Virus record (IMG/VR): IMGVR_UViG_3300020073_000092
Source of the DNA: an uncultured virus (IMG/VR IMGVR_UViG_3300020073_000092)
Taxonomy: Duplodnaviria > Heunggongvirae > Uroviricota > Caudoviricetes
DNA: 64,000 nt
Reading direction: 5' to 3' (one strand)
Below, in pieces: positions 9,907 through 64,000 of this stretch (its first letter is position 1; every line of letters starts with the position of its first letter). A program made the position numbers and the translations under genes. The notes beneath the pieces are model-generated. The model ran no database searches. It was not told the origin of the DNA and saw nothing but the letters and a program-made list of their open reading frames with translations.

Positions 9907-11073
9907 ATGAAAAATGAATATATACGGACAAGTATTATTATCTTGAGCTATAATGCCTTAGAGTATACACAGCTTTGTTTGGAGAGTATCCACAAAAACA
10001 CTCGGCAGGGAACGTATGAAATCATCGTAGTGGACAATGGTTCCACGGATGGTTCGGCAGAATGGCTGCAAAGTCAAAAATATATACGCTGTATATTAAA
10101 TAAAGATAATCAAGGTTTCCCAAAGGGCTGTAATCAAGGTTTGAAGATCGCTAAAGGTGAAAATTTACTCTTATTGAACAATGATACTATTGTCACTCCG
10201 GGATGGTTGGATAATATGCTGACTGCCTTGCATAGCAGGCCGGATATAGGAGCGGTCAGTTGTATGACTAACTGTTGCCAAAATGAGCAGGCACTTAGTT
10301 TGCCCTATCACTCCATTGAGGAACTTATGGAAGTATCGAGGGATTTTAACCAATCGAATTCTGCAAAGTGGTATTCGTGGATGATGCTGGTAGGTTTCTG
10401 TTTGCTCTTTAAGCGTGAGGTTTATACGCAGCTAGGCGATTTGGATGAGATGTTCAGTCCGGGCAATTTCGAGGATGATGATTATTGCCTGCGCATGCGC
10501 AAGGCTGGCTATGAATTGCTGTTATGCGGTGATACATACATTCATCACTTCGGCAGCGTGGCCTTCACGGGAAAAAATGATGCTGCCCAGCAGAAGGCCA
10601 AGGAAGATCGCTATAAAGCATTAGTTCTCAAAAATCGGGCATATTTTTTTCAAAAGTGGAACATTTTAGGAACATATCGTTCCCATTATAGGATGACGGA
10701 TTCGCTACTTAAAACACTAGCATCAGGACAGGAAGTTTTGATGGTAAACTGTGATTTAGGTTATGAACTCTACTGGCTGAAGCGAAGACAGCCGGATGTA
10801 GCGTTGTATGGCTTGACCTTAGATAAACTGGGCGTAGAGGTAACCGGGAAAACGTTCCCCCTATTTTTTTGCGAGGACTTTTGTGAAGGGCTGGAAAAGT
10901 ATTACCAGCAAAAACGCTTTGCACGGATTGCCGTGCTGGGAAATTATCAAAAATTGCCTAATGGTGAAGGCCTGATTCAGGCATTACAGCAGCACCTGAT
11001 CAATCCAGGTATACTATTTTTCGGTGATGAGGAGCATATCTACCATCTGTCGGTGGGGGATACTGGGATGTAA
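9907..11073 (+). CDS. GT2 family glycosyltransferase
   Basis: VVDNGSTD, LLNND and FEDDD motifs. Confidence 0.9.
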   Translation: MKNEYIRTSIIILSYNALEYTQLCLESIHKNTRQGTYEIIVVDNGSTDGSAEWLQSQKYIRCILNKDNQGFPKGCNQGLKIAKGENLLLLNNDTIVTPGWLDNMLTALHSRPDIGAVSCMTNCCQNEQALSLPYHSIEELMEVSRDFNQSNSAKWYSWMMLVGFCLLFKREVYTQLGDLDEMFSPGNFEDDDYCLRMRKAGYELLLCGDTYIHHFGSVAFTGKNDAAQQKAKEDRYKALVLKNRAYFFQKWNILGTYRSHYRMTDSLLKTLASGQEVLMVNCDLGYELYWLKRRQPDVALYGLTLDKLGVEVTGKTFPLFFCEDFCEGLEKYYQQKRFARIAVLGNYQKLPNGEGLIQALQQHLINPGILFFGDEEHIYHLSVGDTGM

Positions 11074-11078
11074 AAAAA

Positions 11079-12387
11079 TAACTATTCACCAGTAGTTTAA
11101 GAATCTCTTACAAATGTACGATAAACTAAATAAAATGGAAAGGAGGCGGCAATCATGATGACACCTGAGGAACAGGCGTATGTTCGCAAGCTAGAAGAAA
11201 CAATTGTTAAATTAGAAGCTCGCATAGCAGAACTAGAACGCCGTCTCAACATGAACAGCTCTAATAGTTCCAAACCGCCTTCCACGGATAAGCCAAACCA
11301 GAAAAAGCGCAGTCTCCGTAAACCGTCAGGAAAAAAGCCCGGCGGTCAAAGTGGACATAAGGGAACTACCTTGAAATTGCCCTGTGCACCATCCAAAATT
11401 ATTCCTTGCAATCCAAAAGAATGTGCAGGTTGTGCATTAGCAGTCCAGTGTCAAGGCAAATGCTTAGAAAGCCGCTATGAGATAGATGCTGAAATTACGG
11501 TGGTTGTCCATAAGTATTCACAGATGGAATATTTTTGTGTCCAAAATCAAACACCTGCCTTCGCGGAAATTTCCCGGAGAATATTACAGCAACAAAGTGC
11601 TATGGCCCTAAGATTCAGGCGTTAGCTATTGGCATGAACACCTATTGTGCTGTTTCGGTCAATAAAATACATGAATTTTTCATGTCCGTATTAAAACTGC
11701 CTGTAAGTACGGGATTTATTCATAATGCCGTAAAGAAAAATGCAGGCAAGCTCGATGATGCCATTAGCAGTATAAAAACAGCCTTATATTCTGCACCTGT
11801 CGTACATGCTGATGAAACAGGAGTGCGTGCATCAGGGGAAACAACATGGTTACATAATGTTTCCACCGAGATGTACACCTACCAGCATGTCAGCGAAAAA
11901 CGCGGGCAAGATGGCATGCGGGAGGGGGATTTTCTCCAACATTACAAAGGCATAGTGATCCACGACTGTTGGCGCCCCTATTGGAAATTCCAATTTGAAG
12001 CGCATGGGCTTTGCTACGCCCATATACTGCGGGAACTGCAAGGTGTTATAGATAACAATCCAAAGCAGGAATGGGCTGAACTTATGATATGGCTGCTTTG
12101 TAAGATGAAAAGCACCAAGGAAAAGCTCATGGATACGGGGAAAACATCTGCCAGTGCCTACTATTGCCGACTATACAAGGGATATTGGCAAGGCTTAATC
12201 TACCAAGGCAAGCAGAATAATCCCATAGAATACAGTGACAAGGGGAAAAGAAAACGGAATATTGCCAGACGATTGGCAGACCGACTGGATGAATACAGCG
12301 AGGATTTTTGTCGTTTCTTCTGGGACTTCCGTGTGCCCTTTGACAACAACCAAGCGGAACGGGATGTCAGACATGCCAAAGTCAAGA
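11079..12387 (+). mobile_element. IS66-family (ISBst12-like) element, right end deleted
   Basis: Left end TAACTATTCAC (terminal G missing); near-identical to 54283-55760 up to GTCAAGA at about 12387. Confidence 0.9.
11155..12387 (+). pseudogene. IS66 transposase, split by a -1 frameshift near 11535 and 3'-truncated
   Basis: NSSNSSKPPS, HADETG, HDCW and DNNQAERD motifs spread over two frames. Confidence 0.85.
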
Positions 12388-13345
12388 AAACGCTGGCTTC
12401 CCCAAGGGCTGCAATCAAGGTCTGGCGGTCGCCCAAGGGACAGAGTTTTTACTGCTGAACAACGATACCATCGTGACGCCGGGGTGGCTAACCAACCTGC
12501 GGATAGCCTTGTATAGTGCCGCAAATATCGGGGCTGTGGGCTGCCTGACCAATCACTCATCCAATGAGCAGGCCATCAGCCTGCCTTATCAATCGATTGA
12601 AGAACTAACGGAAGTTGCAGAAAAATTTAACCAATCCGATCCGGCGAAATGGTATCCATGGATGATGCTGGTGGGCTTTTGTTTGCTTTTTAAGCGTGAG
12701 GTCTATATGCGAATAGGTGGATTAGATGAAGCTTTCAGCCCCGGTAATTTTGAGGATGATGACTACTGCTTGCGCATGCGACAGGCTGGTTATGAGTTGT
12801 TACTGTGCGGTGATACTTACATCCATCACTTTGGCAGTGTCGCCTTTACCGGAAAAAACAATGCTGCCCAGCAGAGAGCCCAACAGGAACGCTACAACAA
12901 GTTGATTGAAAAAAATCGTAGTTATTTCATGCAAAAGTGGCACGTACAGGGAACATATCGTTCACATTACGAAATGACGGACCTATTGCTAAAGGAAATA
13001 ACAGGGAAAGAGGACGTACTCTTGGTCAACTGTGACATGGGCTATGAACTGTTTTGGCTGAAACGGCGAGCCCCGGAAACCACTGTCTATGGACTTACCA
13101 CGGATAAATTGGGGGTTGAGGTGACGGGAAAAAGTTTTCCTTTATATGTATGCCATGACTTTATGGATGGATTGGTCAAACATTATGCCGAGAAAAAATT
13201 TGCCCGAATTGTCTTGCTGGGGAATTATAAGAAACGAGTGCAGGGGGATAGACTGATTCAGACATTGCGTCAGCATTTGACGGAGGACGGTCTGCTGTTC
13301 TTTGGTGATGCAGAGCGTATATACCGCATGCCCGCTCATGATTAG
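12386..13345 (+). pseudogene. 5'-truncated GT2 glycosyltransferase, paralog of 9907-11073
   Basis: Frame reads ENAGFPKGCNQGL...LLNNDTIVTPGWL directly after the IS junction; roughly 65 N-terminal residues are missing. Confidence 0.85.
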
Positions 13346-56180: not shown

Positions 56181-56212
56181 AGAAACTACATTATCGTATG
56201 GGAGGAAAACTG

Positions 56213-58684
56213 ATGGCTAGCATTTTCTTATCGCATAGTAGCAAAGATAAAGAGAGATATGTAAGAATTGTTGCAGAGAAATTGGAAAAGGAATTTGATG
56301 AGCATAGTGTTCATTATGATGAGCACACATTTGAAGCGGGAATGAAATCACTAGAAGAAATTGAAAAAGGTTTGGATAATACTGATTTATTTGTAATTTT
56401 TTTGTCCAGGGCTTCATTAAATTCAGATTGGGTTAAAAAAGAACTATTAGTGGCTAGAGAAAGTAATATTATAAAGCGTATTTATCCAATAGTAATTGAA
56501 GATAACCTAGATTGGAATGATAAAGAAATTCCTGAATGGCTTAAGGAATACAATTTAAAGTATATATCTAAGCCATCTAAAGCTGTCCAATTAATTAGGA
56601 AAAGATTAATTGAGATTACTTGGGAGCAAACATCTGAAAATAGTTATAAAGATGCTATTTTTGTTGGAAGAAATGCTCAGGTTCAAGATTTTGAAGAACG
56701 GAAGTATGATTATGACAAAGAAACGGTGGTTGCATACTTTGCTTCAGGAATAGTTCAAATTGGCCGGAAAAGCTTTCTTAAGCACTGTTTTGTAAAGGCA
56801 AACATCATAGATAGACAAACTTGCCCGTCAATAATCGAAGCGGGAATGTATGATGGTGTTGAGGATCTTATTGTTTATTTAAGAGATTTGGGATTTAGCG
56901 ATGATATTGACATTTCAAACTTTATGAACCAATCTTTGACGGAGAAAACAGAGATTTTGTCAAGAATTTTGGATTCTATATCTGATAATAAAGAAGTTGT
57001 TTTGATTGAAGATAAGGGGTGCATTGTAACGCATGAGGGAACTGTTTGCGAATGGTTTATTGAAGCACTTAAAATGATGCGAAAAAAAACAAGGACTGTT
57101 CTTGGAGTTGCCTCGAAGTTTAACATAAAACTACCTATAATATGTGATGAAATGTATGTTATTAAGATTCCGCCGATGGATAAAACGGAATCTGCGGGCC
57201 TTTTGCAAAAATATCTTGACCAAAAGCGGGTTGGCTTACAAAGAGAAGATTTTAAAAATTATGTAAATTTAATGAATGGTTTTCCGGCGCAGGTAAAGTT
57301 TACAGTCTCTCTATTACAAAAATATGGCGCAGAAAAAACATATGATTATGCGGCTGAAATTAAGAATTATGATTCCGAAATTATAATTCAATTAATGAGG
57401 CCTTATGAAGATAATGAAGAATATAGGGATTTCGTTATGCTATTAGTTGAACTGGATATGGTTACATACCGGACAATTCAAAGTATAGTCAAGGATGTTG
57501 ATTTCGTTTCGAATATAATAAACAAACTGTATGTTGATGGCGTTATTGAGTTTTATGGTGTAAACAGGGAATATATTAAAATTGCATATGTAGTGCGTGA
57601 ATATATTACAAGAGCAGGTTACAAAACACCAGAACGGTATCAAAATGCCATAAATGAATATATTACCAATTTTCTAGATAAATATGAATATGCAGAGTTA
57701 GATATGCCTGACTATTTGTATAAAATTAAGGAACAGGTTAAGCATGGCGAGTATAATAACGAGTATATGCTCCCGTCACAGTATTTAAAGACGATGGTTG
57801 AGTTGTATGAAAAAGATAGGGACTATGCGAGAGTAATAGAATTTGCTGATACAATCCTAAAAAGCTGTGAATATATAGAAGAAAAACTTGTATTTGAGAT
57901 CAGGTTCTTTTTATGTATGGCTTTAGCACAGAAGAGAGAGAGAAGGTTTTTGGCCGAAGTACAAGAAATACATGGAGCAGATCATAATTTCCTGCTAGGA
58001 TTTTTTTACAGAAGGGAGGGACAGTATGAAAGAGCGTTGTCAGAAATAGAGAAGAGCCTTAGTTTACGAAAGAATTTCTCAAAAGCCAAAAGGGAGAAGG
58101 TGCAATTACTGATCAATCTTGAACAGTATGATGACGCTATTGAATTAGCTAGAGAAAACTATACGAATGATAAGAAAAATGTATATCATGCACATGCGTA
58201 CCTATTATGTATATTAAAAAGCGGAAGAAATGCAGATAGTATAGAAGTGATAGACGAAATACTTTTAAGTATTTCTAAATCATTAACTGATTTGGGGAAA
58301 GAATTGTATCCTAGATGTAAAGCGTTGGTTTCTATGTATTGCGAAAGAGATATTGATAAGGCATTGGCGCTAATTGATAAAGTAATCGAGGAGAGTGATT
58401 ACAAAATTTACGCAATCCAAGACAGATTTGACATATGTGAAAAAGCTAATGATATTGACGAAATGAAAAAAACCATAGAAATACTTGAGTCGACCAATAT
58501 GCGTGATGCTTATGGCAAAGAGCGTGCAATGATTAGATTCCAAATTTTGCTAGCTGCATACGAGGGCGATAAAAAGTGTGCATTTTCACTGCTAGATGGC
58601 ATGCAACATAAGAAAATACGTTTAAATTCAAATGTATTATCAAAGAAGGTGAATGCAATATTGATGCGCCAGAAAACATTGTAA
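56213..58684 (+). CDS. TIR domain, divergent STAND-like P-loop and TPR protein (NLR-like defence candidate)
   Basis: IFLSHSSKDK, SDWVKKEL (catalytic Glu), FVGR, GIVQIGRKS, C-terminal TPR helices; GGAGG RBS. Confidence 0.85.
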   Translation: MASIFLSHSSKDKERYVRIVAEKLEKEFDEHSVHYDEHTFEAGMKSLEEIEKGLDNTDLFVIFLSRASLNSDWVKKELLVARESNIIKRIYPIVIEDNLDWNDKEIPEWLKEYNLKYISKPSKAVQLIRKRLIEITWEQTSENSYKDAIFVGRNAQVQDFEERKYDYDKETVVAYFASGIVQIGRKSFLKHCFVKANIIDRQTCPSIIEAGMYDGVEDLIVYLRDLGFSDDIDISNFMNQSLTEKTEILSRILDSISDNKEVVLIEDKGCIVTHEGTVCEWFIEALKMMRKKTRTVLGVASKFNIKLPIICDEMYVIKIPPMDKTESAGLLQKYLDQKRVGLQREDFKNYVNLMNGFPAQVKFTVSLLQKYGAEKTYDYAAEIKNYDSEIIIQLMRPYEDNEEYRDFVMLLVELDMVTYRTIQSIVKDVDFVSNIINKLYVDGVIEFYGVNREYIKIAYVVREYITRAGYKTPERYQNAINEYITNFLDKYEYAELDMPDYLYKIKEQVKHGEYNNEYMLPSQYLKTMVELYEKDRDYARVIEFADTILKSCEYIEEKLVFEIRFFLCMALAQKRERRFLAEVQEIHGADHNFLLGFFYRREGQYERALSEIEKSLSLRKNFSKAKREKVQLLINLEQYDDAIELARENYTNDKKNVYHAHAYLLCILKSGRNADSIEVIDEILLSISKSLTDLGKELYPRCKALVSMYCERDIDKALALIDKVIEESDYKIYAIQDRFDICEKANDIDEMKKTIEILESTNMRDAYGKERAMIRFQILLAAYEGDKKCAFSLLDGMQHKKIRLNSNVLSKKVNAILMRQKTL

Positions 58685-58733: not shown

Positions 58734-58874
58734 TAGCTTTTGAACGGTATGAATATATTGAGAAGAGAAGTTGTCAAGCCTAGAGAGGTGTATAATGGAC
58801 CCATGGATTCAGACCAGTGTTTGAAATTTTAAGCGCGCATGATATAATAACCGAACAAAATGGAGGTCATAATC

Positions 58875-59213
58875 ATGCCAAGAAAAAAGTACACTGCTGA
58901 ATTCAAGACCAAGGTCATCCTATCGATACTACAAGGTGACAAAGAGTTTAACGAGATATGTGCCGAATACAACCTTAACCCCAGCATGGTCAGAAAATGG
59001 AAGCAGGACTTCCTGCAAAATGCCCATCTTGCTTTTGGTGCCACTGCTGAGCGCAAGAACGCTCAGAGAAAGGAGGATGACCTGAAGAAGAAAAACGACC
59101 AGATGCTGAAGACGATTGGCCAGCTGACATTGGAGCGTGATTTTCTTCAGGACTGTTTTCGCCAAGCTGGAGAAGTCCTGCCTAAACTGCCGGACTTTGA
59201 TCCAAAGGGATAA
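58875..59213 (+). CDS. IS3 OrfA (HTH)
   Basis: RKKYTAEFK...W...IGQLTLERDFL; GGAGG RBS. Confidence 0.85.
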   Translation: MPRKKYTAEFKTKVILSILQGDKEFNEICAEYNLNPSMVRKWKQDFLQNAHLAFGATAERKNAQRKEDDLKKKNDQMLKTIGQLTLERDFLQDCFRQAGEVLPKLPDFDPKG

Positions 59214-60030
59214 CGGGCTTTCTGTCCGCCGGCAATGTGAACTCTTGGGACTCAACCGTTCCAGCGTCTATTACGAACCAACAGAGCCAGATGAAGCGTA
59301 CCGGCTGCTAGATGATGAGCTTATGAAACGTATCGACTACTGGCATACAAAATGTCCTTATTTCGGTTCCCGCAAAATTCTCGACAAACTACGAAAAGAA
59401 GGCTATGGCATAGGCCGCAAGAAAGTTCGCCGGCTCATGTGCGAGATGGGCATAACAGCCATATATCCAAAAATCAATTTATCCAAGCGAAATTTCAAGG
59501 AGGCTGTTGTGCCATATCTGCTGCGCAATTATAAGGTGAATTTTCCCAATCAGGTCTGGTCCATCGACATAACTTATATTCCCATGCGGCGCGGCCATAT
59601 GTATTTAACGGCCATAATTGACTGGTATAGCCGGAAAATCGTTGGGCACCATTTGTCGGATACCTTAGATACAAGAGAGGTCTTGTACGCGGTGAGAGAG
59701 TCTGTAGCTAACCATGGCATTCCGTCTATCCTGAACTCTGACCAGGGTAGCCAGTTTACCAGCGATGATTACAAAAAACTCCTACAGGAGTATGGTATTC
59801 GTCAAAGCATGGATGGCAAAAGTCGCTGGGCCGATAACATTATGATTGAACGATGGTTCAGCAGCCTCAAAACCGAAGCTATATATCCGAATGAATATAC
59901 TTCACCTCGGGAACTGCGGCAGCTGATAAATGGCTATGTCCGAGACTATAATACAATCTGCTCTCATAAATCGCTGGACTACAAGGTTCCAAACGAAGTC
60001 TATTATGGAGCTTTTGCCAATATTGCATAA
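59137..60030 (+). CDS. IS3 OrfB DDE transposase (true start uncertain)
   Basis: WSIDITY, NSDQGSQF and IERWFSSLKTE motifs. Confidence 0.9.
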   Translation: MIFFRTVFAKLEKSCLNCRTLIQRDNGLSVRRQCELLGLNRSSVYYEPTEPDEAYRLLDDELMKRIDYWHTKCPYFGSRKILDKLRKEGYGIGRKKVRRLMCEMGITAIYPKINLSKRNFKEAVVPYLLRNYKVNFPNQVWSIDITYIPMRRGHMYLTAIIDWYSRKIVGHHLSDTLDTREVLYAVRESVANHGIPSILNSDQGSQFTSDDYKKLLQEYGIRQSMDGKSRWADNIMIERWFSSLKTEAIYPNEYTSPRELRQLINGYVRDYNTICSHKSLDYKVPNEVYYGAFANIA

Positions 60031-60077
60031 CGCGCTTAAAAATTTTCAAGGTGGTCTTGACTAGGGGACCATTATAA

Positions 60078-60276
60078 TTTCCAGTAGAGTTTGCTAATTT
60101 TGAGCACAGAGTAAGAGTTTTGTCCGTTAATTATGGAGAGCAGGATTTCAATGCAGTAACTTTAGGGCCTGGTTCATATCTCGTGAGTGGTAGTTTTGAA
60201 TTTGGCAGTATAGATTGTCAGGTCCTTATAGGATGTTATTCATCTTTAGGACATAGAATTATAGTAAACGTCAATG
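60078..60276 (+). pseudogene. Gene fragment, possibly a hexapeptide (CatB-like) acetyltransferase, trapped between IS ends
   Basis: Open frame TLGPGSY...VLIGCYSSLGH. Confidence 0.3.
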
Positions 60277-60344
60277 GTAACTATTCACCAGTAGTTTATG
60301 AATCTCTTACAAATGTACGATAAACTAAATAAAATGGAAAGGAG
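60277..60344 (+). mobile_element. 68-bp left-end remnant of the same IS66 element, cut at its RBS by IS110
   Basis: GTAACTATTCACCAGTAG...GGAAAGGAG matches the other two left ends. Confidence 0.9.
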
Positions 60345-60385
60345 CATTCCCGTTAAGAACAAATTCCAGGTTTGAGAAATAACGA

Positions 60386-60454
60386 AAACTCCCCTAAACT
60401 AGAATTACATACCGGGTCGTCAAAGCGCCCTAAAAAATCTAGTTAGGAGAGTTT
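60386..60454 (+). promoter_or_regulatory. 5' UTR stem that would sequester the IS110 recombinase RBS
   Basis: AAACTCCCCTAAACTAGA pairs with TCTAGTTAGGAGAGTTT, which contains AGGAG. Confidence 0.6.
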
Positions 60455-60459
60455 CCAAT

Positions 60460-61743
60460 ATGAATTCTACACAAAATATCAAAATTAGTCAAATCACTGA
60501 GGACATTTTAATCGTTGGCATCGATGTTGGCTGCTTCACGCATTACGCCCGTGCCTTCGACTGGCGTGGCATGGAAGCCAGCTATGTGTTCAAATTTACC
60601 AATTGCCGGGATCAGTTCGAGAGGTTCTTGTGCTGGATGCGCAAGGCAGCCCATGAGAACGGCAAGAAAAAGATCCTTGTGGGGCTTGAGCCCACGGGCC
60701 ATTACTGGTTCGCACGGGCTCAGTTCCTAGAGGAAAACAATATTGGTATCAGCATGGTCAATCCATACCATGTGAAACAGACCAAAGAACTTGACGACAA
60801 TAATCAGACCAAGAACGACCGAAAAGACCCCAAAGTCATCGCCAAGCTTGTCACAGAAGGGCGCTACAGCTATCCGTACGTTCCTATGGGCATCTACGCA
60901 GACCTGCGCAACTTCCATAATATGTACCTGGACTGCACCAAGGACCTTATCAAGGTCAAAAACAAGCTGGCACGGTGGTTCAACATCTGGTTCCCGGAAT
61001 ATGGGGAAGTTTTCAAGGATATGGGGGCTAAGAGCAGCCTCATGCTGCTCGAAAAGGCTCGTACTCCAGATGCAGTCATCACACTGGATGCTGAAGGCAT
61101 TAACGCCATCTGGAGGGAAGCCAAACTCCGTGCAGTAGGCATGAAAAAGGCCCAGCGTATCGTCGATGCAGCCAAGCGCAGCATTGGCAGAAAAGCTGGC
61201 CGCAGGTCGGCATCTTTCGAGCTGGAAATGCTTTTGGCAGACTACTGCAAAATAAAAACTCAACTGAATAAGGTTATGGCAGAACTGGAAGGACTGTGCA
61301 AGGAAATCCCAGCGACAAAGCAAATGCTGGCCATCAAAGGCATCGGCCTAAAGAACGTGGTGGGCTTTCTGGCTGAGGTGGGAGATATAGGACGTTTTCA
61401 AACACCGAAGCAGATACAGAAACTGGCAGGTCTTGCCCTGAAAGAGAACAGTTCAGGCAAACACAAAAGTGAAACCAGCATCAGCAGGCGAGGAAGGAAA
61501 CGTCTGAGAACGGTGCTGTTCACCGCTGCAATCTCACTCATTGGCAAGAATAAAGCTTATCAGAAGCTGCATCAGCACTACACCCAGCGGCTGAACAATC
61601 CGCTGAAGAAGAAGCAGTCTGTCGTAGCCATTGGCTGCAAGCTTATCCGTATATTTTTCACACTACTCAGTAAGGGAGTCGCTTACGACGAAGAAAAAAT
61701 GCTGAATGACATTGTGTGGGAAGATGAAGCAATAGCAGCCTAA
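60460..61743 (+). CDS. IS110 DEDD recombinase/transposase
   Basis: VGID, LEPTG, KNDRKD and ENSSGK (Ser loop) motifs. Confidence 0.95.
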   Translation: MNSTQNIKISQITEDILIVGIDVGCFTHYARAFDWRGMEASYVFKFTNCRDQFERFLCWMRKAAHENGKKKILVGLEPTGHYWFARAQFLEENNIGISMVNPYHVKQTKELDDNNQTKNDRKDPKVIAKLVTEGRYSYPYVPMGIYADLRNFHNMYLDCTKDLIKVKNKLARWFNIWFPEYGEVFKDMGAKSSLMLLEKARTPDAVITLDAEGINAIWREAKLRAVGMKKAQRIVDAAKRSIGRKAGRRSASFELEMLLADYCKIKTQLNKVMAELEGLCKEIPATKQMLAIKGIGLKNVVGFLAEVGDIGRFQTPKQIQKLAGLALKENSSGKHKSETSISRRGRKRLRTVLFTAAISLIGKNKAYQKLHQHYTQRLNNPLKKKQSVVAIGCKLIRIFFTLLSKGVAYDEEKMLNDIVWEDEAIAA

Positions 61744-62160
61744 GGAAGCAAGAAATATCTCTGATTTCTGGTTAGACGTCCACCGCAAGGTGCCAGACAT
61801 TGGGGCAGTACAACCAAATATGAAGAACTGGTAGCCAGGATTTTTTCCATTAGAGCGCATAAAGCGACTCGGCAAAGGAGCATACATGGCACCCGGATAT
61901 GGATAAGCGGAACGAAGGAATTTAGGACTCTGCATAGTCAGATGATCCTGTTAGACATGGGAGGTTCGTTACCATAAGGCGAAGGGATTATATTGGTCTT
62001 CCCAAAAGCAAGGCAATGACGTTAGCCTCGCTATACCCGAAATCCCGTTTACGCCATGCATAATGCACCACTTATTCATGTTATGTTGTTCTTCGTAAAT
62101 TAAACTGCCATGAAAAACTAAGAAAAACGGAGATATTCAAAGATAATTAAAGATTATATA
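61744..62160 (+). ncRNA. Putative IS110 bridge/seek RNA region
   Basis: About 420 nt non-coding end containing AAAGGAGCAT, which matches the left junction; boundaries unknown. Confidence 0.45.
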
Positions 62161-62174
62161 GGGAGGTACTTATT

Positions 62175-62461
62175 ATGATTATAAGATTTGGTGATATAGG
62201 AAAGAGTTTAGGAACGCGGGATGATGGAAGAAGATTTAGGATGCAAATAGTTAATGGGTTTAATGAACAAAAAAAGTTGAGCTAGATTTTCATGGCGTGG
62301 AAATGGTGTCAAATTCGTTTGCGGATGAATGTATAGGTAAATTGGTTGAAGAGATGGGGCTTGAGAAACTAAAAAGTTTTACAACCTTTAAAAATACCAG
62401 TAAGAATGTGGCGATGGTGTTACAAAAGGTTATCAAAGATAGACTGGCAAGTGTATGTTAG
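62175..62461 (+). pseudogene. STAS-like (DUF4325-type) protein frameshifted at an A7 run
   Basis: LGTRDDG, then in the -1 frame ELDFHGVEMVSNSFADECIGKL. Confidence 0.75.
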
Positions 62462-62596
62462 AATGGAGTTGATGTTCGTATTGCTAATATTTATAGAGCA
62501 GAATAGAAAAAGATATGGTGCTACATAAAGGCTAGTGCGGTATGCATTAGCCTGAATCTTTGTAAACGAAAAACCATCCGGTGTATCACATATACG

Positions 62597-62626
62597 AAAA
62601 GAACCTGACCAGCACTAGTCAGGTTC
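62597..62626 (-). terminator. Rho-independent terminator after tnpC
   Basis: GAACCTGAC/GTCAGGTTC stem followed by TTTT on the minus strand. Confidence 0.65.
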
Positions 62627-62632
62627 AAATTT

Positions 62633-64000
62633 TTATTTGCAGTTCTTCTGGATTTCGTCACTCCAAGGCAGGTAGTTTTCCAGCAACTCAGGATGTATTT
62701 TGAAATTCAGATTGGGAAGATTTTCAAATAGATAGGTCAAATAACGAAATGGCTCCAAGTCATTGGCTTTGCTGGTTTCTACTATGCTATAAACGGCAGC
62801 GCTGGCGGCTGCGCCCTTCGGTGAGGCGCTGAACAACCAATTCTTGCGGCCAATGGTAAAGTTGCGGATAGCCCGTTCGCAGATATTATTCGAAAGAGCG
62901 ATGTTGCCATCTGTCAGGAAGGCACTAAGCCCTTTCCGATGATTCAAGGCATAGTTAACCGCCTTACCCAGCGCAGATTTAGGCAACGCCTTGGGCTGGA
63001 TTCCTTCCAGCCACACGAAGAAAGCCTCCAGCTTGTCTTTTTCAAGCCGCAGACGCTCTGCCTGCCGTTCTTCAGCAGACTTATGGGAAAGCTCTTTATC
63101 TAAGGCAAACAGTTCATTGATTTTCCGGATGGCCTGCCCGCTTATGGATTCGGCTGCTTCTTCCTGCGAAATTCCTGCCGGAATAGCATCCACAAAGTAG
63201 CGGCGGGCATGCACCCAGCAGAGAGCATGTTCCTTGCAGGGAATCTGCTCATAACCGGCATAGCCGTCTGTTTGCAGGATGCCCTTATATCCCTCAAGGA
63301 ACTTTCCGGCAAAGCCTCCGTTCCGGCCGGGATGGTATTCGTAGATCCGGATTTGCCATCCGTCCTGCACGAACTCGCCATTGGTATACACCCACATGTA
63401 AGACTTGGTCTTATTCTTCCGCCCTTTTTCGTTGAGCACCTGTACTGGCGTTTCGTCTGCATGGATTACCGGCTGCTTCAAAAGCTCTGTGTGCATGCAA
63501 TCTACCAGCGGCATAAGCCAGTCTTCTGCTGACCGGATCACCCAGTTGGCCAATGTGGCCCGGGATAACTCTACGCCAATGGATTTCCACTCCTGTTCCT
63601 GACGGTAAAGAGGCATGGAAAACTGGTCTTTCTGCGTAATGACATGCGCTACACTGGACGGCGAGGCGATGGACTTTGCCAGCACCGGCTGCGGCATCTG
63701 TGGCTTTTCGATGGAGAAATGTTCTTTTTTCCGGCATTCCAGGCATTGGAAGGATTCTCGGTAAAAATCGATGACTTTTACGTAGCAGGAATGAACTGCA
63801 CCTCCGTACAGATTTTCTCTCGGCCCATGGATGTGAGCTGTGTCCCGCAACGTTTGCAGATACGCTCATCTTTCGGCAGGGTGATTACACGTTCCTCATG
63901 CGGCATATCTTTCAGAATCTGATCAAGATGGCCTTTCTGCTTCTTGCGCCGCTGATGAGCAGGGTCTTCAATGACCGGCTCAGGAGCACTGCCTTTTGCC
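62633..64000 (-). pseudogene. tnpC: IS66 TnpC transposase with a 1-bp frameshift near 63780
   Basis: Upstream frame ICKRCG...FIPAT* continues as VKVIDFY in another frame; HADETP, QTDGY, CWVHARR and NNICERAIR motifs. Confidence 0.85.

What the first reader, a model, noticed from the sequence alone, without database searches (positions are those of the whole stretch)
60338..62177. IS110 that targets Shine-Dalgarno sequences, with a matching guide candidate in its 3' non-coding end
Seen: the left junction cuts the IS66 RBS (GGAAAGGAG|GCGGCAATCATG in intact copies). The right end GGGAG|GTACTTATTATG rebuilds an RBS for the next gene. The 3' end contains AAAGGAGCAT (61874-61883), identical to 60338-60347, and a GGGAG at 61959-61963 like the right tip. 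Known: IS110/IS1111 recombinases use bridge/seek RNAs, and IS900 inserts at RBSs. Inference: the RNA is programmed against the SD consensus and restores it on insertion.
Basis: partly seen in the sequence, partly recalled or inferred. Interest (0 to 1): 0.7.

Follow-up and report, generated by a model that had tools for sequence, protein, structure and literature searches.

The report
Bridge-RNA insertion sequence aimed at ribosome-binding sites
This is an IS110-family mobile element whose own small guide RNA is programmed with the ribosome-binding-site consensus, so it lands just in front of genes and leaves them a new ribosome-binding site; the kind of element is known, this way of aiming it is a new variant.

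Summary
Window 60345-62165 is an intact 1,821-bp IS110-family element, with a 427-aa DEDD/Ser recombinase at 60460-61743. Its 422-nt 3' non-coding end carries a two-loop bridge/seek-type RNA at about 61834-61986.

- **Target guide.** The hexamer 61875-61880 lies on the 3' side of the first internal loop. It is identical to the six bases left of the insertion point.
- **Covariation.** Across 66 distinct (left flank, guide) pairs from relatives, flank positions -6 to -1 match the element's own guide in 58, 55, 62, 64, 66 and 66 cases. Position -7 is at chance. Ten guide hexamers occur, and nine equal their consensus flank.
- **Handshake and donor guide.** The next two guide bases copy the first bases of the element. 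The second segment, 61952-53 plus 61959-63, copies the right tip and covaries with it.
- **Insertion sites.** 44 of 57 distinct right flanks have a start codon 5-13 nt downstream that opens an ORF. The right tip supplies a new Shine-Dalgarno at the old spacing.

No guide for the right flank was found, so specificity is about 6+1 nt. The window copy has flanks that do not belong together. Targeting of ribosome-binding sites is already known for IS900.

The parts
60278..60344 (+). First 67 nt of an IS66-family unit, ending in the Shine-Dalgarno of its first ORF; this is the left flank of the insertion
   Evidence: 97-98.5% identical to the starts of 4 other copies in the genome. Identity ends at 60344. 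The intact copies continue with another sequence and an ATG 9 nt on.
60339..60344 (+). Left target hexamer read by the guide; the last two bases (60343-60344) are the inferred crossover core
   Evidence: Identical to 61875-61880. Family-wide match per position. The core is narrowed to 2 nt by elements whose target and right tip share only those two bases (L099).
60345..62165 (+). IS110-family insertion sequence, 1,821 bp, single copy in this genome
   Evidence: ends; family.
60345..60459 (+). Left non-coding end (115 nt). 60346-60350 is complementary to RNA 61917-61921. A promoter-like site lies at 60372-60400
   Evidence: Left end conserved in 66 loci. Promoter-like match scores 9 of 12 and sits in a block conserved among relatives (by eye).
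60460..61743 (+). Recombinase gene, 427 aa
   Evidence: PF01548 scores 83.5 bits and PF02371 77 bits. NF033542, 'IS110 family RNA-guided transposase', scores 216.7 bits against a cut-off of 140. Acidic residues and the Ser-Gly motif are invariant in 11 relatives.
61744..62165 (+). Right non-coding end (422 nt), which encodes the guide RNA
   Evidence: A profile of this end aligns in 88 stretches of related loci. No Rfam family matches: the only hit has E 8.5 and is below threshold.
61834..61890 (+). Target-binding arm. The outer stem is 61834-61837 with 61887-61890. The inner hairpin is 61853-61855 with 61868-61870. The internal loop is 61838-61852 and 61871-61886
   Evidence: Helices 1 and 2: 5 of 6 and 4 of 4 pairs show changes on both sides.
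61875..61880 (+). Target guide, same sense as the left flank. It would pair with the strand that carries the complement of the Shine-Dalgarno
   Evidence: 58, 55, 62, 64, 66 and 66 of 66 matches at positions -6 to -1. 0 of 10,000 shuffles reach the observed value at -6 to -4. These are the top two of 3,540 column-by-flank tests.
61881..61883 (+). Handshake-type extension that copies the first bases of the element (60345-60347)
   Evidence: The first two bases equal the first two bases of the left end in 49 of 66 pairs. The first base co-changes with the left end in 5 of 5 elements of one subgroup.
61892..61986 (+). Donor-binding arm. Stems are 61899-61902/61972-61975, 61906-61909/61967-61970 and 61924-61927/61946-61949. 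The outer stem 61892-61894/61984-61986 is tentative
   Evidence: Helices 3-5 are 100%, 89% and 87% paired. The outer stem is not distinguishable from shuffles.
61916..61921 (+). Donor guide on the 5' side of the loop, complementary to bases 2-7 of the left end
   Evidence: Read from alignments. Two elements (L018, L068) change the RNA base and the left-end base together. The window itself has one mismatch.
61952..61965 (+). Donor guide on the 3' side of the loop. It is split: 61952-53 and 61959-63 copy the last 7 bases of the right tip, and 61964-65 is a handshake-type extension towards the right flank
   Evidence: 61952 and 61953 are identical to right-tip positions -7 and -6 in 52 of 52 rows. 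Positions -5 to -1 match in 61, 60, 61, 61 and 61 of 61 rows, with co-changes. The next base equals right flank +1 in 58 of 61 rows.
62159..62165 (+). Right tip of the element. It serves as the replacement Shine-Dalgarno for the downstream gene
62166..62461 (+). Right flank: a 9-nt spacer, ATG at 62175, then a frameshifted DUF4325 gene
   Evidence: Pfam PF14213 on 62297-62458; one search showed stops in the uninterrupted reading.

Best explanation
An intact IS110-family element carries, downstream of its recombinase gene, a bridge/seek-type RNA with two internal loops.

**First loop (target-binding).** Its 3' side holds a 6-nt guide with the sequence of the Shine-Dalgarno consensus. The guide would pair with the DNA strand that bears the complement of the Shine-Dalgarno sequence. 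It is followed by 2 nt that match the first bases of the element.

**Second loop (donor-binding).** Its 5' side is complementary to bases 2-7 of the left end. Its 3' side copies the last 7 bases of the right tip in two pieces, followed by 1-2 nt that match the first bases of the right flank.

**Layout compared with IS621.** Read on the strand antisense to the recombinase gene, the crossover core is CT. Seen this way the layout is the one solved for IS621: right-side guides on the 3' sides of the loops, each followed by a handshake guide. The transcription unit, however, is inverted relative to the core.

**Consequences.**
- The circular form would recombine at a 6+1-nt site that is found mainly at ribosome-binding sites.
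- The element ends up co-directional with the gene.
- The old Shine-Dalgarno is left on the left flank.
- The element's right tip gives the gene a new Shine-Dalgarno at the same spacing.

**Shown here:** element ends, family, structure covariation, guide-target and guide-donor covariation, and position relative to start codons.

**Inferred:** that the RNA is made and bound by the recombinase, that a circle is the donor, and that downstream genes stay translated.
For: **Family.** Pfam and NCBIfam assign the protein to the IS110 family.

**Ends.** The left junction is fixed against 4 uninterrupted copies in the same genome. The right end is fixed by the end of homology in relatives.

**Target guide.**
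- 66 distinct (left flank, guide) pairs were compared. 46 match 6 of 6, 15 match 5 of 6, and 5 match 4 or fewer.
- 10 distinct guide hexamers occur, and 9 equal their consensus flank.
- Shuffling gives 131.2 +/- 4.2 matches against 175 observed, with 0 of 10,000 shuffles as high.
- Non-Shine-Dalgarno guides also match their flanks: L031, L090, L099 and a Cytobacillus plasmid copy at 7 of 7.

**Donor guide.** It covaries with the right tip.

**Structure.** 88.2% of cells pair, against 32-52% when partners are slid. 15 of 22 pairs show compensatory changes. The covariation score is 0.339 against 0.188 +/- 0.011. Both guides lie in the internal loops.

**Ribosome-binding-site position.**
- 44 of 57 distinct right flanks have a start codon 5-13 nt downstream.
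- The control, the same 4-mer elsewhere in the flanks, gives 131 of 558.
- An annotated Sporomusa plasmid has the next CDS start 8 nt after the junction.

**Published model.** Guide definitions come from passages of PMC11208160. Handshake guides come from passages of PMC11208158. The 3' location and reversed order of the matches come from sections of PMC11187229.
Against: - **No direct evidence that the RNA is made or bound.** Contigs from RNA libraries cover the element but cannot show transcription or RNA ends. No circle junction was seen there.
- **Folding of the window sequence alone is unremarkable.** It is no more stable than shuffles (z 0.19). Its minimum-energy fold pairs four guide bases with the 5' side of the loop. 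That pairing is possible in 83.8% of cells but has no compensatory change.
- **No guide for the right flank was found**, unlike IS621. Neither left-type guide reaches the core.
- **The sequence preference explains most of the site preference.** In the window's own genome 60.0% of hexamer+G sites are already followed by a start codon and an ORF. The sequence preference alone therefore accounts for most of the 77%.
- **The G at right flank +1 is part of the Shine-Dalgarno consensus**, so only 2 co-changing cases support pairing there.
- **Relatives are not independent**, so shuffle counts overstate significance.
- **No empty site with both flanks was recovered**. Absence of a target duplication beyond the core is therefore inferred.
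- **The window copy itself has flanks that do not belong together.**
Confidence: 0.85

Rival explanations
1. The recombinase protein alone recognises the purine-rich site. On this view the internal 10-mer is a chance repeat, or the Shine-Dalgarno of a small ORF in the 3' end, and has no guiding role.
For: The 10-mer repeat alone is weak: 3 of 100 shuffles give two copies. In the window an ATG follows the segment by 5 nt and opens a 6-codon ORF. The last three positions of the guide and of the target hardly vary, so they say nothing either way.
Against: Positions -6 to -4 change together in guide and flank across 10 guide variants, including variants unlike a Shine-Dalgarno. The ATG after the segment is missing in many relatives, such as L026, L027 and L010. 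The segment lies in a loop of a structure supported by covariation, next to a second segment that tracks the element's own tip.
Confidence: 0.04
2. The RNA guides insertion, but ribosome-binding sites are not the point. The element simply follows a 6+1-nt word that happens to be common there. Rebuilding of the site by the right tip is then a by-product of the shared core, not a selected feature.
For: In the window's own genome 277 of 462 hexamer+G sites (60.0%) are followed by a start codon and an ORF, against 44 of 57 insertions. Distant relatives carry guides for other words and do not sit in front of genes, as in the Cytobacillus plasmid.
Against: The right tip keeps a Shine-Dalgarno-like pentamer in all 61 distinct rows, although only two bases are needed as core. 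No terminator-like site lies in the element. The element is always co-directional with the downstream ORF in the 44 cases. The guide consensus across the gut and rumen clade stays on the Shine-Dalgarno word.
Confidence: 0.1
3. The copy in the window is a dead relic whose RNA no longer matters, and the guide-flank identity is inherited from an ancestor inserted elsewhere.
For: It is a single copy in the genome. Its flanks are non-cognate and the rest of the IS66-like unit is missing. Fragments of the same element lie in related genomes.
Against: The ORF is full length and keeps all residues that are invariant among 11 relatives. Both ends and all guide segments are intact. The left flank matches the guide at 6 of 6 positions.
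Confidence: 0.15

Closest known systems
IS621 and its bridge RNA (IS110 group; Durrant et al. 2024, PMC11208160; Hiraizumi et al. 2024, PMC11208158; passages read)
   Same: - DEDD + Ser recombinase domains.
- The RNA has a target loop followed by a donor loop.
- The guides on the 3' sides of the loops are followed by 2-nt handshake guides that match the other DNA partner.
- The right donor guide pairs discontiguously.
- The core is CT when read on the strand the 3'-side guides pair with.
   Different: - The RNA lies downstream of the gene, and the whole transcription unit is inverted relative to the core.
- The recombinase is 427 aa against 328 aa. Only the C-terminal part matches by sequence, at E 2.7e-6.
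- No programmable left target guide was found, and the left donor guide does not reach the core.
- The target is about 6+1 nt instead of 11-14 nt.
IS1111-type elements and their seekRNA (ISEc11, ISKpn4, ISPa11; Siddiquee et al. 2024, PMC11187229; sections 6, 9, 13 and passages read)
   Same: The long non-coding region and the RNA lie downstream of the gene. In the donor loop, the segment complementary to the gene-sense strand precedes the segment identical to it.
   Different: No subterminal inverted repeats were found. The recombinase is far longer than the 330-350 aa given for that family. That paper notes that some IS110-type elements also have a downstream region, and this element fits that description.
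IS900 of Mycobacterium avium subsp. paratuberculosis
   Same: It is an IS110-family element whose insertion motif is a start codon, a 6-nt spacer and the complement of a Shine-Dalgarno. The motif is printed in PMC8141618 (passage read). 'IS900 targets translation initiation signals' (Doran et al. 1997) was seen only as a reference-list entry.
   Different: - It belongs to a different phylum and is a distant protein.
- As printed relative to IS900, the motif puts the gene to be translated on the strand opposite the transposase. Here the transposase and the downstream gene are co-directional.
- No ORF spans the opposite strand here; the longest is 198 aa.
- I found no paper that links IS900 targeting to an RNA guide.

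Membership tests
IS110 family (RNA-guided DEDD/Ser recombinase elements) | Recombinase with DEDD_Tnp_IS110 and Transposase_20 domains | tested here: met
   PF01548 scores 83.5 bits and PF02371 77 bits, both above cut-off. NF033542 scores 216.7 bits against 140.
IS110 family (RNA-guided DEDD/Ser recombinase elements) | Conserved acidic residues and Ser-Gly motif | tested here: met
   D22, E77, D120, D123 and S331/S332/G333 are invariant in 11 relatives. Equating them with the catalytic residues of IS621 rests on the published pattern, not on an alignment made here.
IS110 family (RNA-guided DEDD/Ser recombinase elements) | Non-coding RNA with internal loops whose sequences track target and donor | tested here: met
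IS110 family (RNA-guided DEDD/Ser recombinase elements) | Insertion at a short shared core, with no terminal inverted repeats and no further duplication | tested here: inconclusive
   No terminal or subterminal inverted repeat rises above shuffles. A core of 2 nt is shared by target and tip. No empty site with both flanks was recovered.
IS110 family (RNA-guided DEDD/Ser recombinase elements) | Circular intermediate; RNA bound to the recombinase | not testable with these tools
   No right-to-left junction appears in the contigs of 4 runs, but contigs drop rare forms.
IS1111 group | Long non-coding region and RNA downstream of the gene | tested here: met
   115 nt upstream against 422 nt downstream.
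IS1111 group | Subterminal inverted repeats of 7-17 bp | tested here: not met
   In the window the best local match is 5 nt, and 178 of 200 shuffles do as well. In 7 further relatives no match recurs at a consistent place.
IS1111 group | Transposase of about 330-350 aa | tested here: not met
   427 aa. The size range is taken from PMC11187229, section 6.
IS110 group of the IS621 type | Bridge RNA in the left end, upstream of the gene | tested here: not met
   The RNA is in the right end.
IS110 group of the IS621 type | Programmable left target guide that includes the core | tested here: not met
   No RNA column tracks the right flank (3,804 tests). An anchored test of the 5' side of the loop gives no signal. 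Power is limited to 60-61 rows.
IS900-type elements that target translation initiation regions | Insertion between Shine-Dalgarno and start codon | tested here: met
   44 of 57 sites, with spacing 5-13 nt and a mode of 9-10.
IS900-type elements that target translation initiation regions | ORF on the opposite strand that takes over the host signals (hed) | tested here: not met
   No minus-strand ORF spans the element; the longest is 198 aa.

The most novel reading that the evidence does not exclude
This lineage would be a natural minimal bridge system in which target choice rests on a single 6-nt guide plus one or two handshake bases, with no second programmable target guide.

Such a system would treat every strong ribosome-binding site as an attachment site. 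It would always insert co-directionally, and it would hand the gene a replacement site with no terminator in between. It would therefore ride inside operons almost silently.

The window's copy, with a left flank from one ribosome-binding site and a right flank from another, would then record an RNA-guided half-site recombination between two such sites. That is a deletion made by the element itself rather than by homologous recombination.
Probability: 0.25. Interest if true: 0.75.

Novelty: new variant of a known kind. Interest (0 to 1): 0.55.

Why it matters
- **It offers an RNA-level explanation for an old observation.** Some IS110-family elements land between the Shine-Dalgarno sequence and the start codon. 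Here that behaviour traces to a guide that spells the Shine-Dalgarno word.
- **It shows how short a natural bridge-type target can be.** The target is about 7 nt, and no second target guide was detected. This bears on the half-match and off-target behaviour now studied for engineered bridge recombinases (abstract of 10.64898/2026.08.31.748434).
- **The family is abundant and offers many natural variants.** 560 of 591 candidate stretches in the metagenome scan encode relatives. It is also present on Bacillota plasmids, in 59 records. Natural guide variants are therefore plentiful.
- **It matters for annotation.** Such insertions sit inside operons without destroying the downstream translation signal.

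Tried and rejected
- **Rfam.** A scan of 60000-62600 found nothing usable; the single hit had E 8.5.
- **RNAalifold.** On 37 sequences it recovered only part of the structure. The helices were then set by eye and tested.
- **Outer stem of the donor arm.** 3-5 bp are possible in 37 of 37 sequences, but shuffles do nearly as well, 3.86 against 4.22. It is left as tentative.
- **Pairing of the guide with the 5' side of its loop.** It is possible, but there is no compensatory change.
- **Guide for the right flank.** None was found. One column (61846 against flank +6) stood out, but as identity rather than complementarity, among 3,804 tests.
- **Subterminal inverted repeats.** None found.
- **Empty sites.** The DUF4325 flank has no homologue in 23 genomes of the genus. 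The right flank of L027 is found only in its own genome.
- **Sequencing runs.** Contigs from RNA libraries of 3 studies cover the element. One contig (61798-61982) has a higher depth than its neighbours in that run, and no circle junction was seen. Contigs cannot show transcription, RNA ends or absence.
- **Earlier notes of this scan.** None for this genome.
- **Paper searches.** A search for a recalled IS900 motif returned only unrelated primer matches. The motif was then found in PMC8141618.
- **Supplements.** The supplements of the bridge-RNA papers, which list predicted targets of many elements, were not read. They may already contain this lineage.
Full report
**What is there**

The window holds one ORF of 427 aa at 60460-61743. 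It has the two domains of IS110-family recombinases: PF01548 at 83.5 bits and PF02371 at 77 bits. It scores 216.7 bits against a cut-off of 140 on NCBIfam NF033542, 'IS110 family RNA-guided transposase'. By sequence it is only distantly like the solved IS621 and ISCro4 proteins (E 2.7e-6 and 4e-6, C-terminal part only). The element is single copy in its genome.

**Ends**

*Left end.* Bases 60278-60344 are the first 67 nt of a 1.3-kb IS66-family unit. Its ORFs carry DUF6444 and DDE_Tnp_IS66. The unit has four other copies in the genome. In those copies the sequence runs on through the ribosome-binding site to an ATG. Identity stops after 60344.

Six relatives found in the first search all begin with the same left-end sequence, preceded by unrelated DNA that ends in the same four bases.

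*Right end.* It is set at 62165 by the end of homology in relatives with unrelated right flanks. The element is therefore 60345-62165, 1,821 bp. It has 115 nt of non-coding DNA upstream of the gene and 422 nt downstream.

**Relatives**

- The genome collection gave 7 loci. The closest is 77% identical in protein, in a record titled Mitsuokella.
- A protein search of 262 genomes of the family found 9 with a match at E 1e-60 or better, counting the window's genome.
- With an alignment of 11 proteins (A1), the metagenome scan found that 560 of 591 candidate stretches encode relatives. The best 80 were kept as L034-L113.
- A profile of the 3' non-coding end aligned in 88 stretches of these loci.
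- A profile of the left end placed the left junction in 66 loci.
- A subgroup with a left end one base shorter was placed from a separate alignment of 19 loci.

**The target guide**

The table lists, for each locus, the left flank and the segment homologous to 61871-61883.

*Rows counted.* I removed duplicates (same 10-nt flank and same guide) and loci that lacked either the guide or at least 6 nt of left flank. That left 66 pairs.

*Per-position match.* The flank equals the element's own RNA segment at positions -6 to -1 in 58, 55, 62, 64, 66 and 66 of 66 pairs. At -7, -8, -9 and -10 it matches in 30 of 64, 16 of 63, 11 of 62 and 22 of 61 pairs.

*Per-pair match.* 46 pairs match 6 of 6, 15 match 5 of 6, and 5 match 4 or fewer.

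*Guide variants.* Ten different guide hexamers occur, and for nine the consensus flank is identical.

*Shuffle control.* At the three variable positions (-6 to -4), 175 of 198 cells match, against 131.2 +/- 4.2 after shuffling guides among flanks. None of 10,000 shuffles reached the observed value. Relatives are not independent, so this is not a probability.

*Blind scan.* A scan of all RNA columns against all left-flank positions (3,540 tests) put 61875 with -6 and 61876 with -5 at the top.

*The largest group.* It consists of near-identical elements with one guide, and it sits at 36 different sites. 27 of these have the exact hexamer. The flanks share nothing else. The flank is therefore chosen by the guide and not copied into it.

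*Guides unlike a Shine-Dalgarno.* These also match their flanks: L031, L090, L099 and a Cytobacillus plasmid copy at 7 of 7.

**Handshake and donor guides**

*Handshake after the target guide.* The two bases after the hexamer equal the first two bases of the left end in 49 of 66 pairs. Where the left end starts with another base, the RNA base changes with it (5 of 5).

*3'-side donor guide.* A second conserved segment copies the right tip. RNA positions homologous to 61959-61963 equal the last five bases in 61, 60, 61, 61 and 61 of 61 distinct rows. There are co-changes at -5 (10 rows) and -4 (3 rows). Two further bases, five positions upstream (61952-61953), equal tip positions -7 and -6 in 52 of 52 rows. 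This is a split pairing of the kind described for the right donor guide of IS621 (passage of PMC11208160).

*Handshake after the donor guide.* The base after the pentamer equals right flank +1 in 58 of 61 rows: G with G 56 times and A with A twice. At +2 the match is 29 of 61 and at +3 it is 10 of 61. G at +1 belongs to the Shine-Dalgarno consensus anyway, so only the two A cases speak for pairing.

*5'-side donor guide.* On the 5' side of the same loop, 61916-61921 is complementary to bases 2-7 of the left end. Two elements change both partners together, and the window has one mismatch (read by eye).

**Core**

Elements whose target and right tip share only the last two bases limit the core to those two bases (L099). 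On the strand antisense to the gene they read CT, which is the IS621 core.

**Structure**

On an alignment of 37 sequences (A2) I tested five helices. The 37 were chosen from 60 distinct RNA sequences by a filter of under 93% identity.

- 88.2% of 798 cells pair, against 31.9-52.0% when the 3' partners are slid by 1-3 columns.
- 15 of 22 pairs show changes on both sides.
- The covariation score is 0.339, against 0.188 +/- 0.011 in 500 shuffles, none of which reaches it.

The target guide lies on the 3' side of the internal loop of the first arm. The two donor segments lie on the two sides of the internal loop of the second arm.

Weaker points:
- An outer stem of the second arm is possible in all 37 sequences but is not better than shuffles.
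- The window sequence folded alone is no more stable than shuffles (z 0.19). Its best fold pairs four guide bases with the opposite side of the loop. Across the family that pairing is possible in 83.8% of cells without any compensatory change, so it stays open.

**How this compares with the solved system**

In IS621, the left guides pair with the bottom strand and the right guides with the top strand. All four guides include the CT core (PMC11208160 passages). Two bases 3' of each right guide pair with the other DNA after strand exchange (PMC11208158 passages).

If the CT-bearing strand is called top here, the assignments are:
- The hexamer is a right target guide with its handshake extension.
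- The split tip copy is a right donor guide with its handshake extension.
- The segment complementary to the left end is a left donor guide.
- The arms come in the same order as in IS621.

The differences are:
- The gene and RNA are transcribed from the other strand relative to the core. This fits the reversed order reported for IS1111-type seekRNAs (PMC11187229).
- The left donor guide stops short of the core.
- No left target guide is detectable.

The element is not an IS1111-type member by the published criteria. It has no subterminal inverted repeats, and at 427 aa it lies outside the 330-350 aa range. That paper notes IS110-type elements with a downstream non-coding region, which fits.

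**Ribosome-binding sites**

Among 57 distinct right flanks with at least 60 nt, 44 have ATG, GTG or TTG 5-13 nt after the junction. The mode is 9-10 nt. In each case the start codon opens an ORF of at least 50 codons or one that runs to the end of the data. Several of the 13 misses, the window among them, also have an ATG at that distance but a short or broken ORF.

Controls:
- The same 4-mer elsewhere in the flanks gives 131 of 558.
- In the window's genome the figures are 27.9% for the 4-mer, 42.1% for the hexamer and 60.0% for hexamer+G.

The preference for translation starts therefore follows largely from the word the guide spells, with a modest excess.

After insertion, the old Shine-Dalgarno stays on the left. 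The right tip, a Shine-Dalgarno-like pentamer in 61 of 61 rows, sits at the same distance from the start codon. No terminator-like site lies in the element.

In a complete, annotated Sporomusa plasmid, the CDS after the element starts 8 nt after the junction.

**The window copy**

Its left flank matches the guide at 6 of 6. Its right flank belongs to a frameshifted DUF4325 gene, not to the IS66-like unit. The remainder of that unit is nowhere in the genome. A contig from another run shows the same arrangement.

The breakpoint lies exactly at the element's right end. Two readings fit:
- Recombination between two former copies deleted what lay between them.
- The element's own recombinase joined its right end to a second ribosome-binding site. 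Half-match recombination of this general kind is reported for IS621 (abstract of 10.64898/2026.08.31.748434).

I could not tell them apart. No relative holds the DUF4325 locus.

**Novelty**

Insertion at translation starts is known for IS900. Its motif is printed in PMC8141618, and the 1997 paper appears in that paper's reference list. Bridge and seek RNAs are known.

I found no paper that describes a guide spelling the Shine-Dalgarno word:
- Searches for 'bridge RNA' + IS110 + 'ribosome binding site'.
- IS110 + Shine-Dalgarno + 'insertion sequence' + 'target site'.
- 'bridge RNA' + Shine-Dalgarno.
- The main texts of PMC11208160 and PMC11187229 do not mention ribosome-binding sites as targets.
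- A 2026 preprint on bridge RNA diversity concerns longer, not shorter, recognition (passages).
- Supplementary tables were not read.

I file this as a new variant of a known kind.

Noticed in passing
window 11079-12390 and 55681 region; also 60278-60344: A 1.3-kb IS66-family unit (DUF6444 ORF plus a DDE_Tnp_IS66 ORF in another frame) has four further copies in the genome. The copy at 11079 sits between two ORFs (9907-11073 and 12473-13345) whose products resemble each other.
   Followed up: partly
window 58860-60030: Two overlapping ORFs (117 and 297 aa) read like an IS3-type orfA/orfB pair. This label is from reading the translation and was not tested.
   Followed up: no
window 56198-58684: An 828-aa ORF lies directly upstream of the mobile elements. 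Its family was not looked up.
   Followed up: no
window 62633-64000 (minus strand): A different IS66-family transposase (DDE_Tnp_IS66 at 311 bits, plus the C-terminal element). It is unrelated in DNA to the 1.3-kb unit.
   Followed up: partly
window 60387-60401: The left end holds an inverted motif that resembles the right tip, about 45 nt in. It overlaps the second hexamer of the promoter-like site. It was seen as an alignment in relative L027.
   Followed up: no
L031, L090, L096, L104, L073 left flanks: The same or a very similar left flank of 15-25 nt recurs in front of elements of two subgroups, with different right flanks. This resembles the hybrid flanks of the window copy.
   Followed up: no
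L089 and L092 left junction: The left junction carries three extra bases that repeat the core region.
   Followed up: no
window 61886-61906: An ATG 5 nt after the guide opens a 6-codon ORF. A similar one exists in the largest group of relatives, but many relatives lack it.
   Followed up: partly
L127 (Cytobacillus firmus plasmid): A relative at 47% protein identity has a guide 7-mer identical to its left flank. The 7-mer is not a Shine-Dalgarno word, and the next annotated gene is on the other strand. The record holds 3 places with this protein.
   Followed up: partly
window 61798-61982: In one metatranscriptome run, a contig covering just the predicted RNA has a depth of 14.9. Neighbouring contigs have about 3-4. 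Contigs cannot rank expression.
   Followed up: no
G002 loci L007, L014, L016; G013 L009; G026 L012; G007 L013: Fragments of the same element (ends only, or with internal deletions) lie in four other genomes of the genus, each at a site ending in the same four bases.
   Followed up: partly
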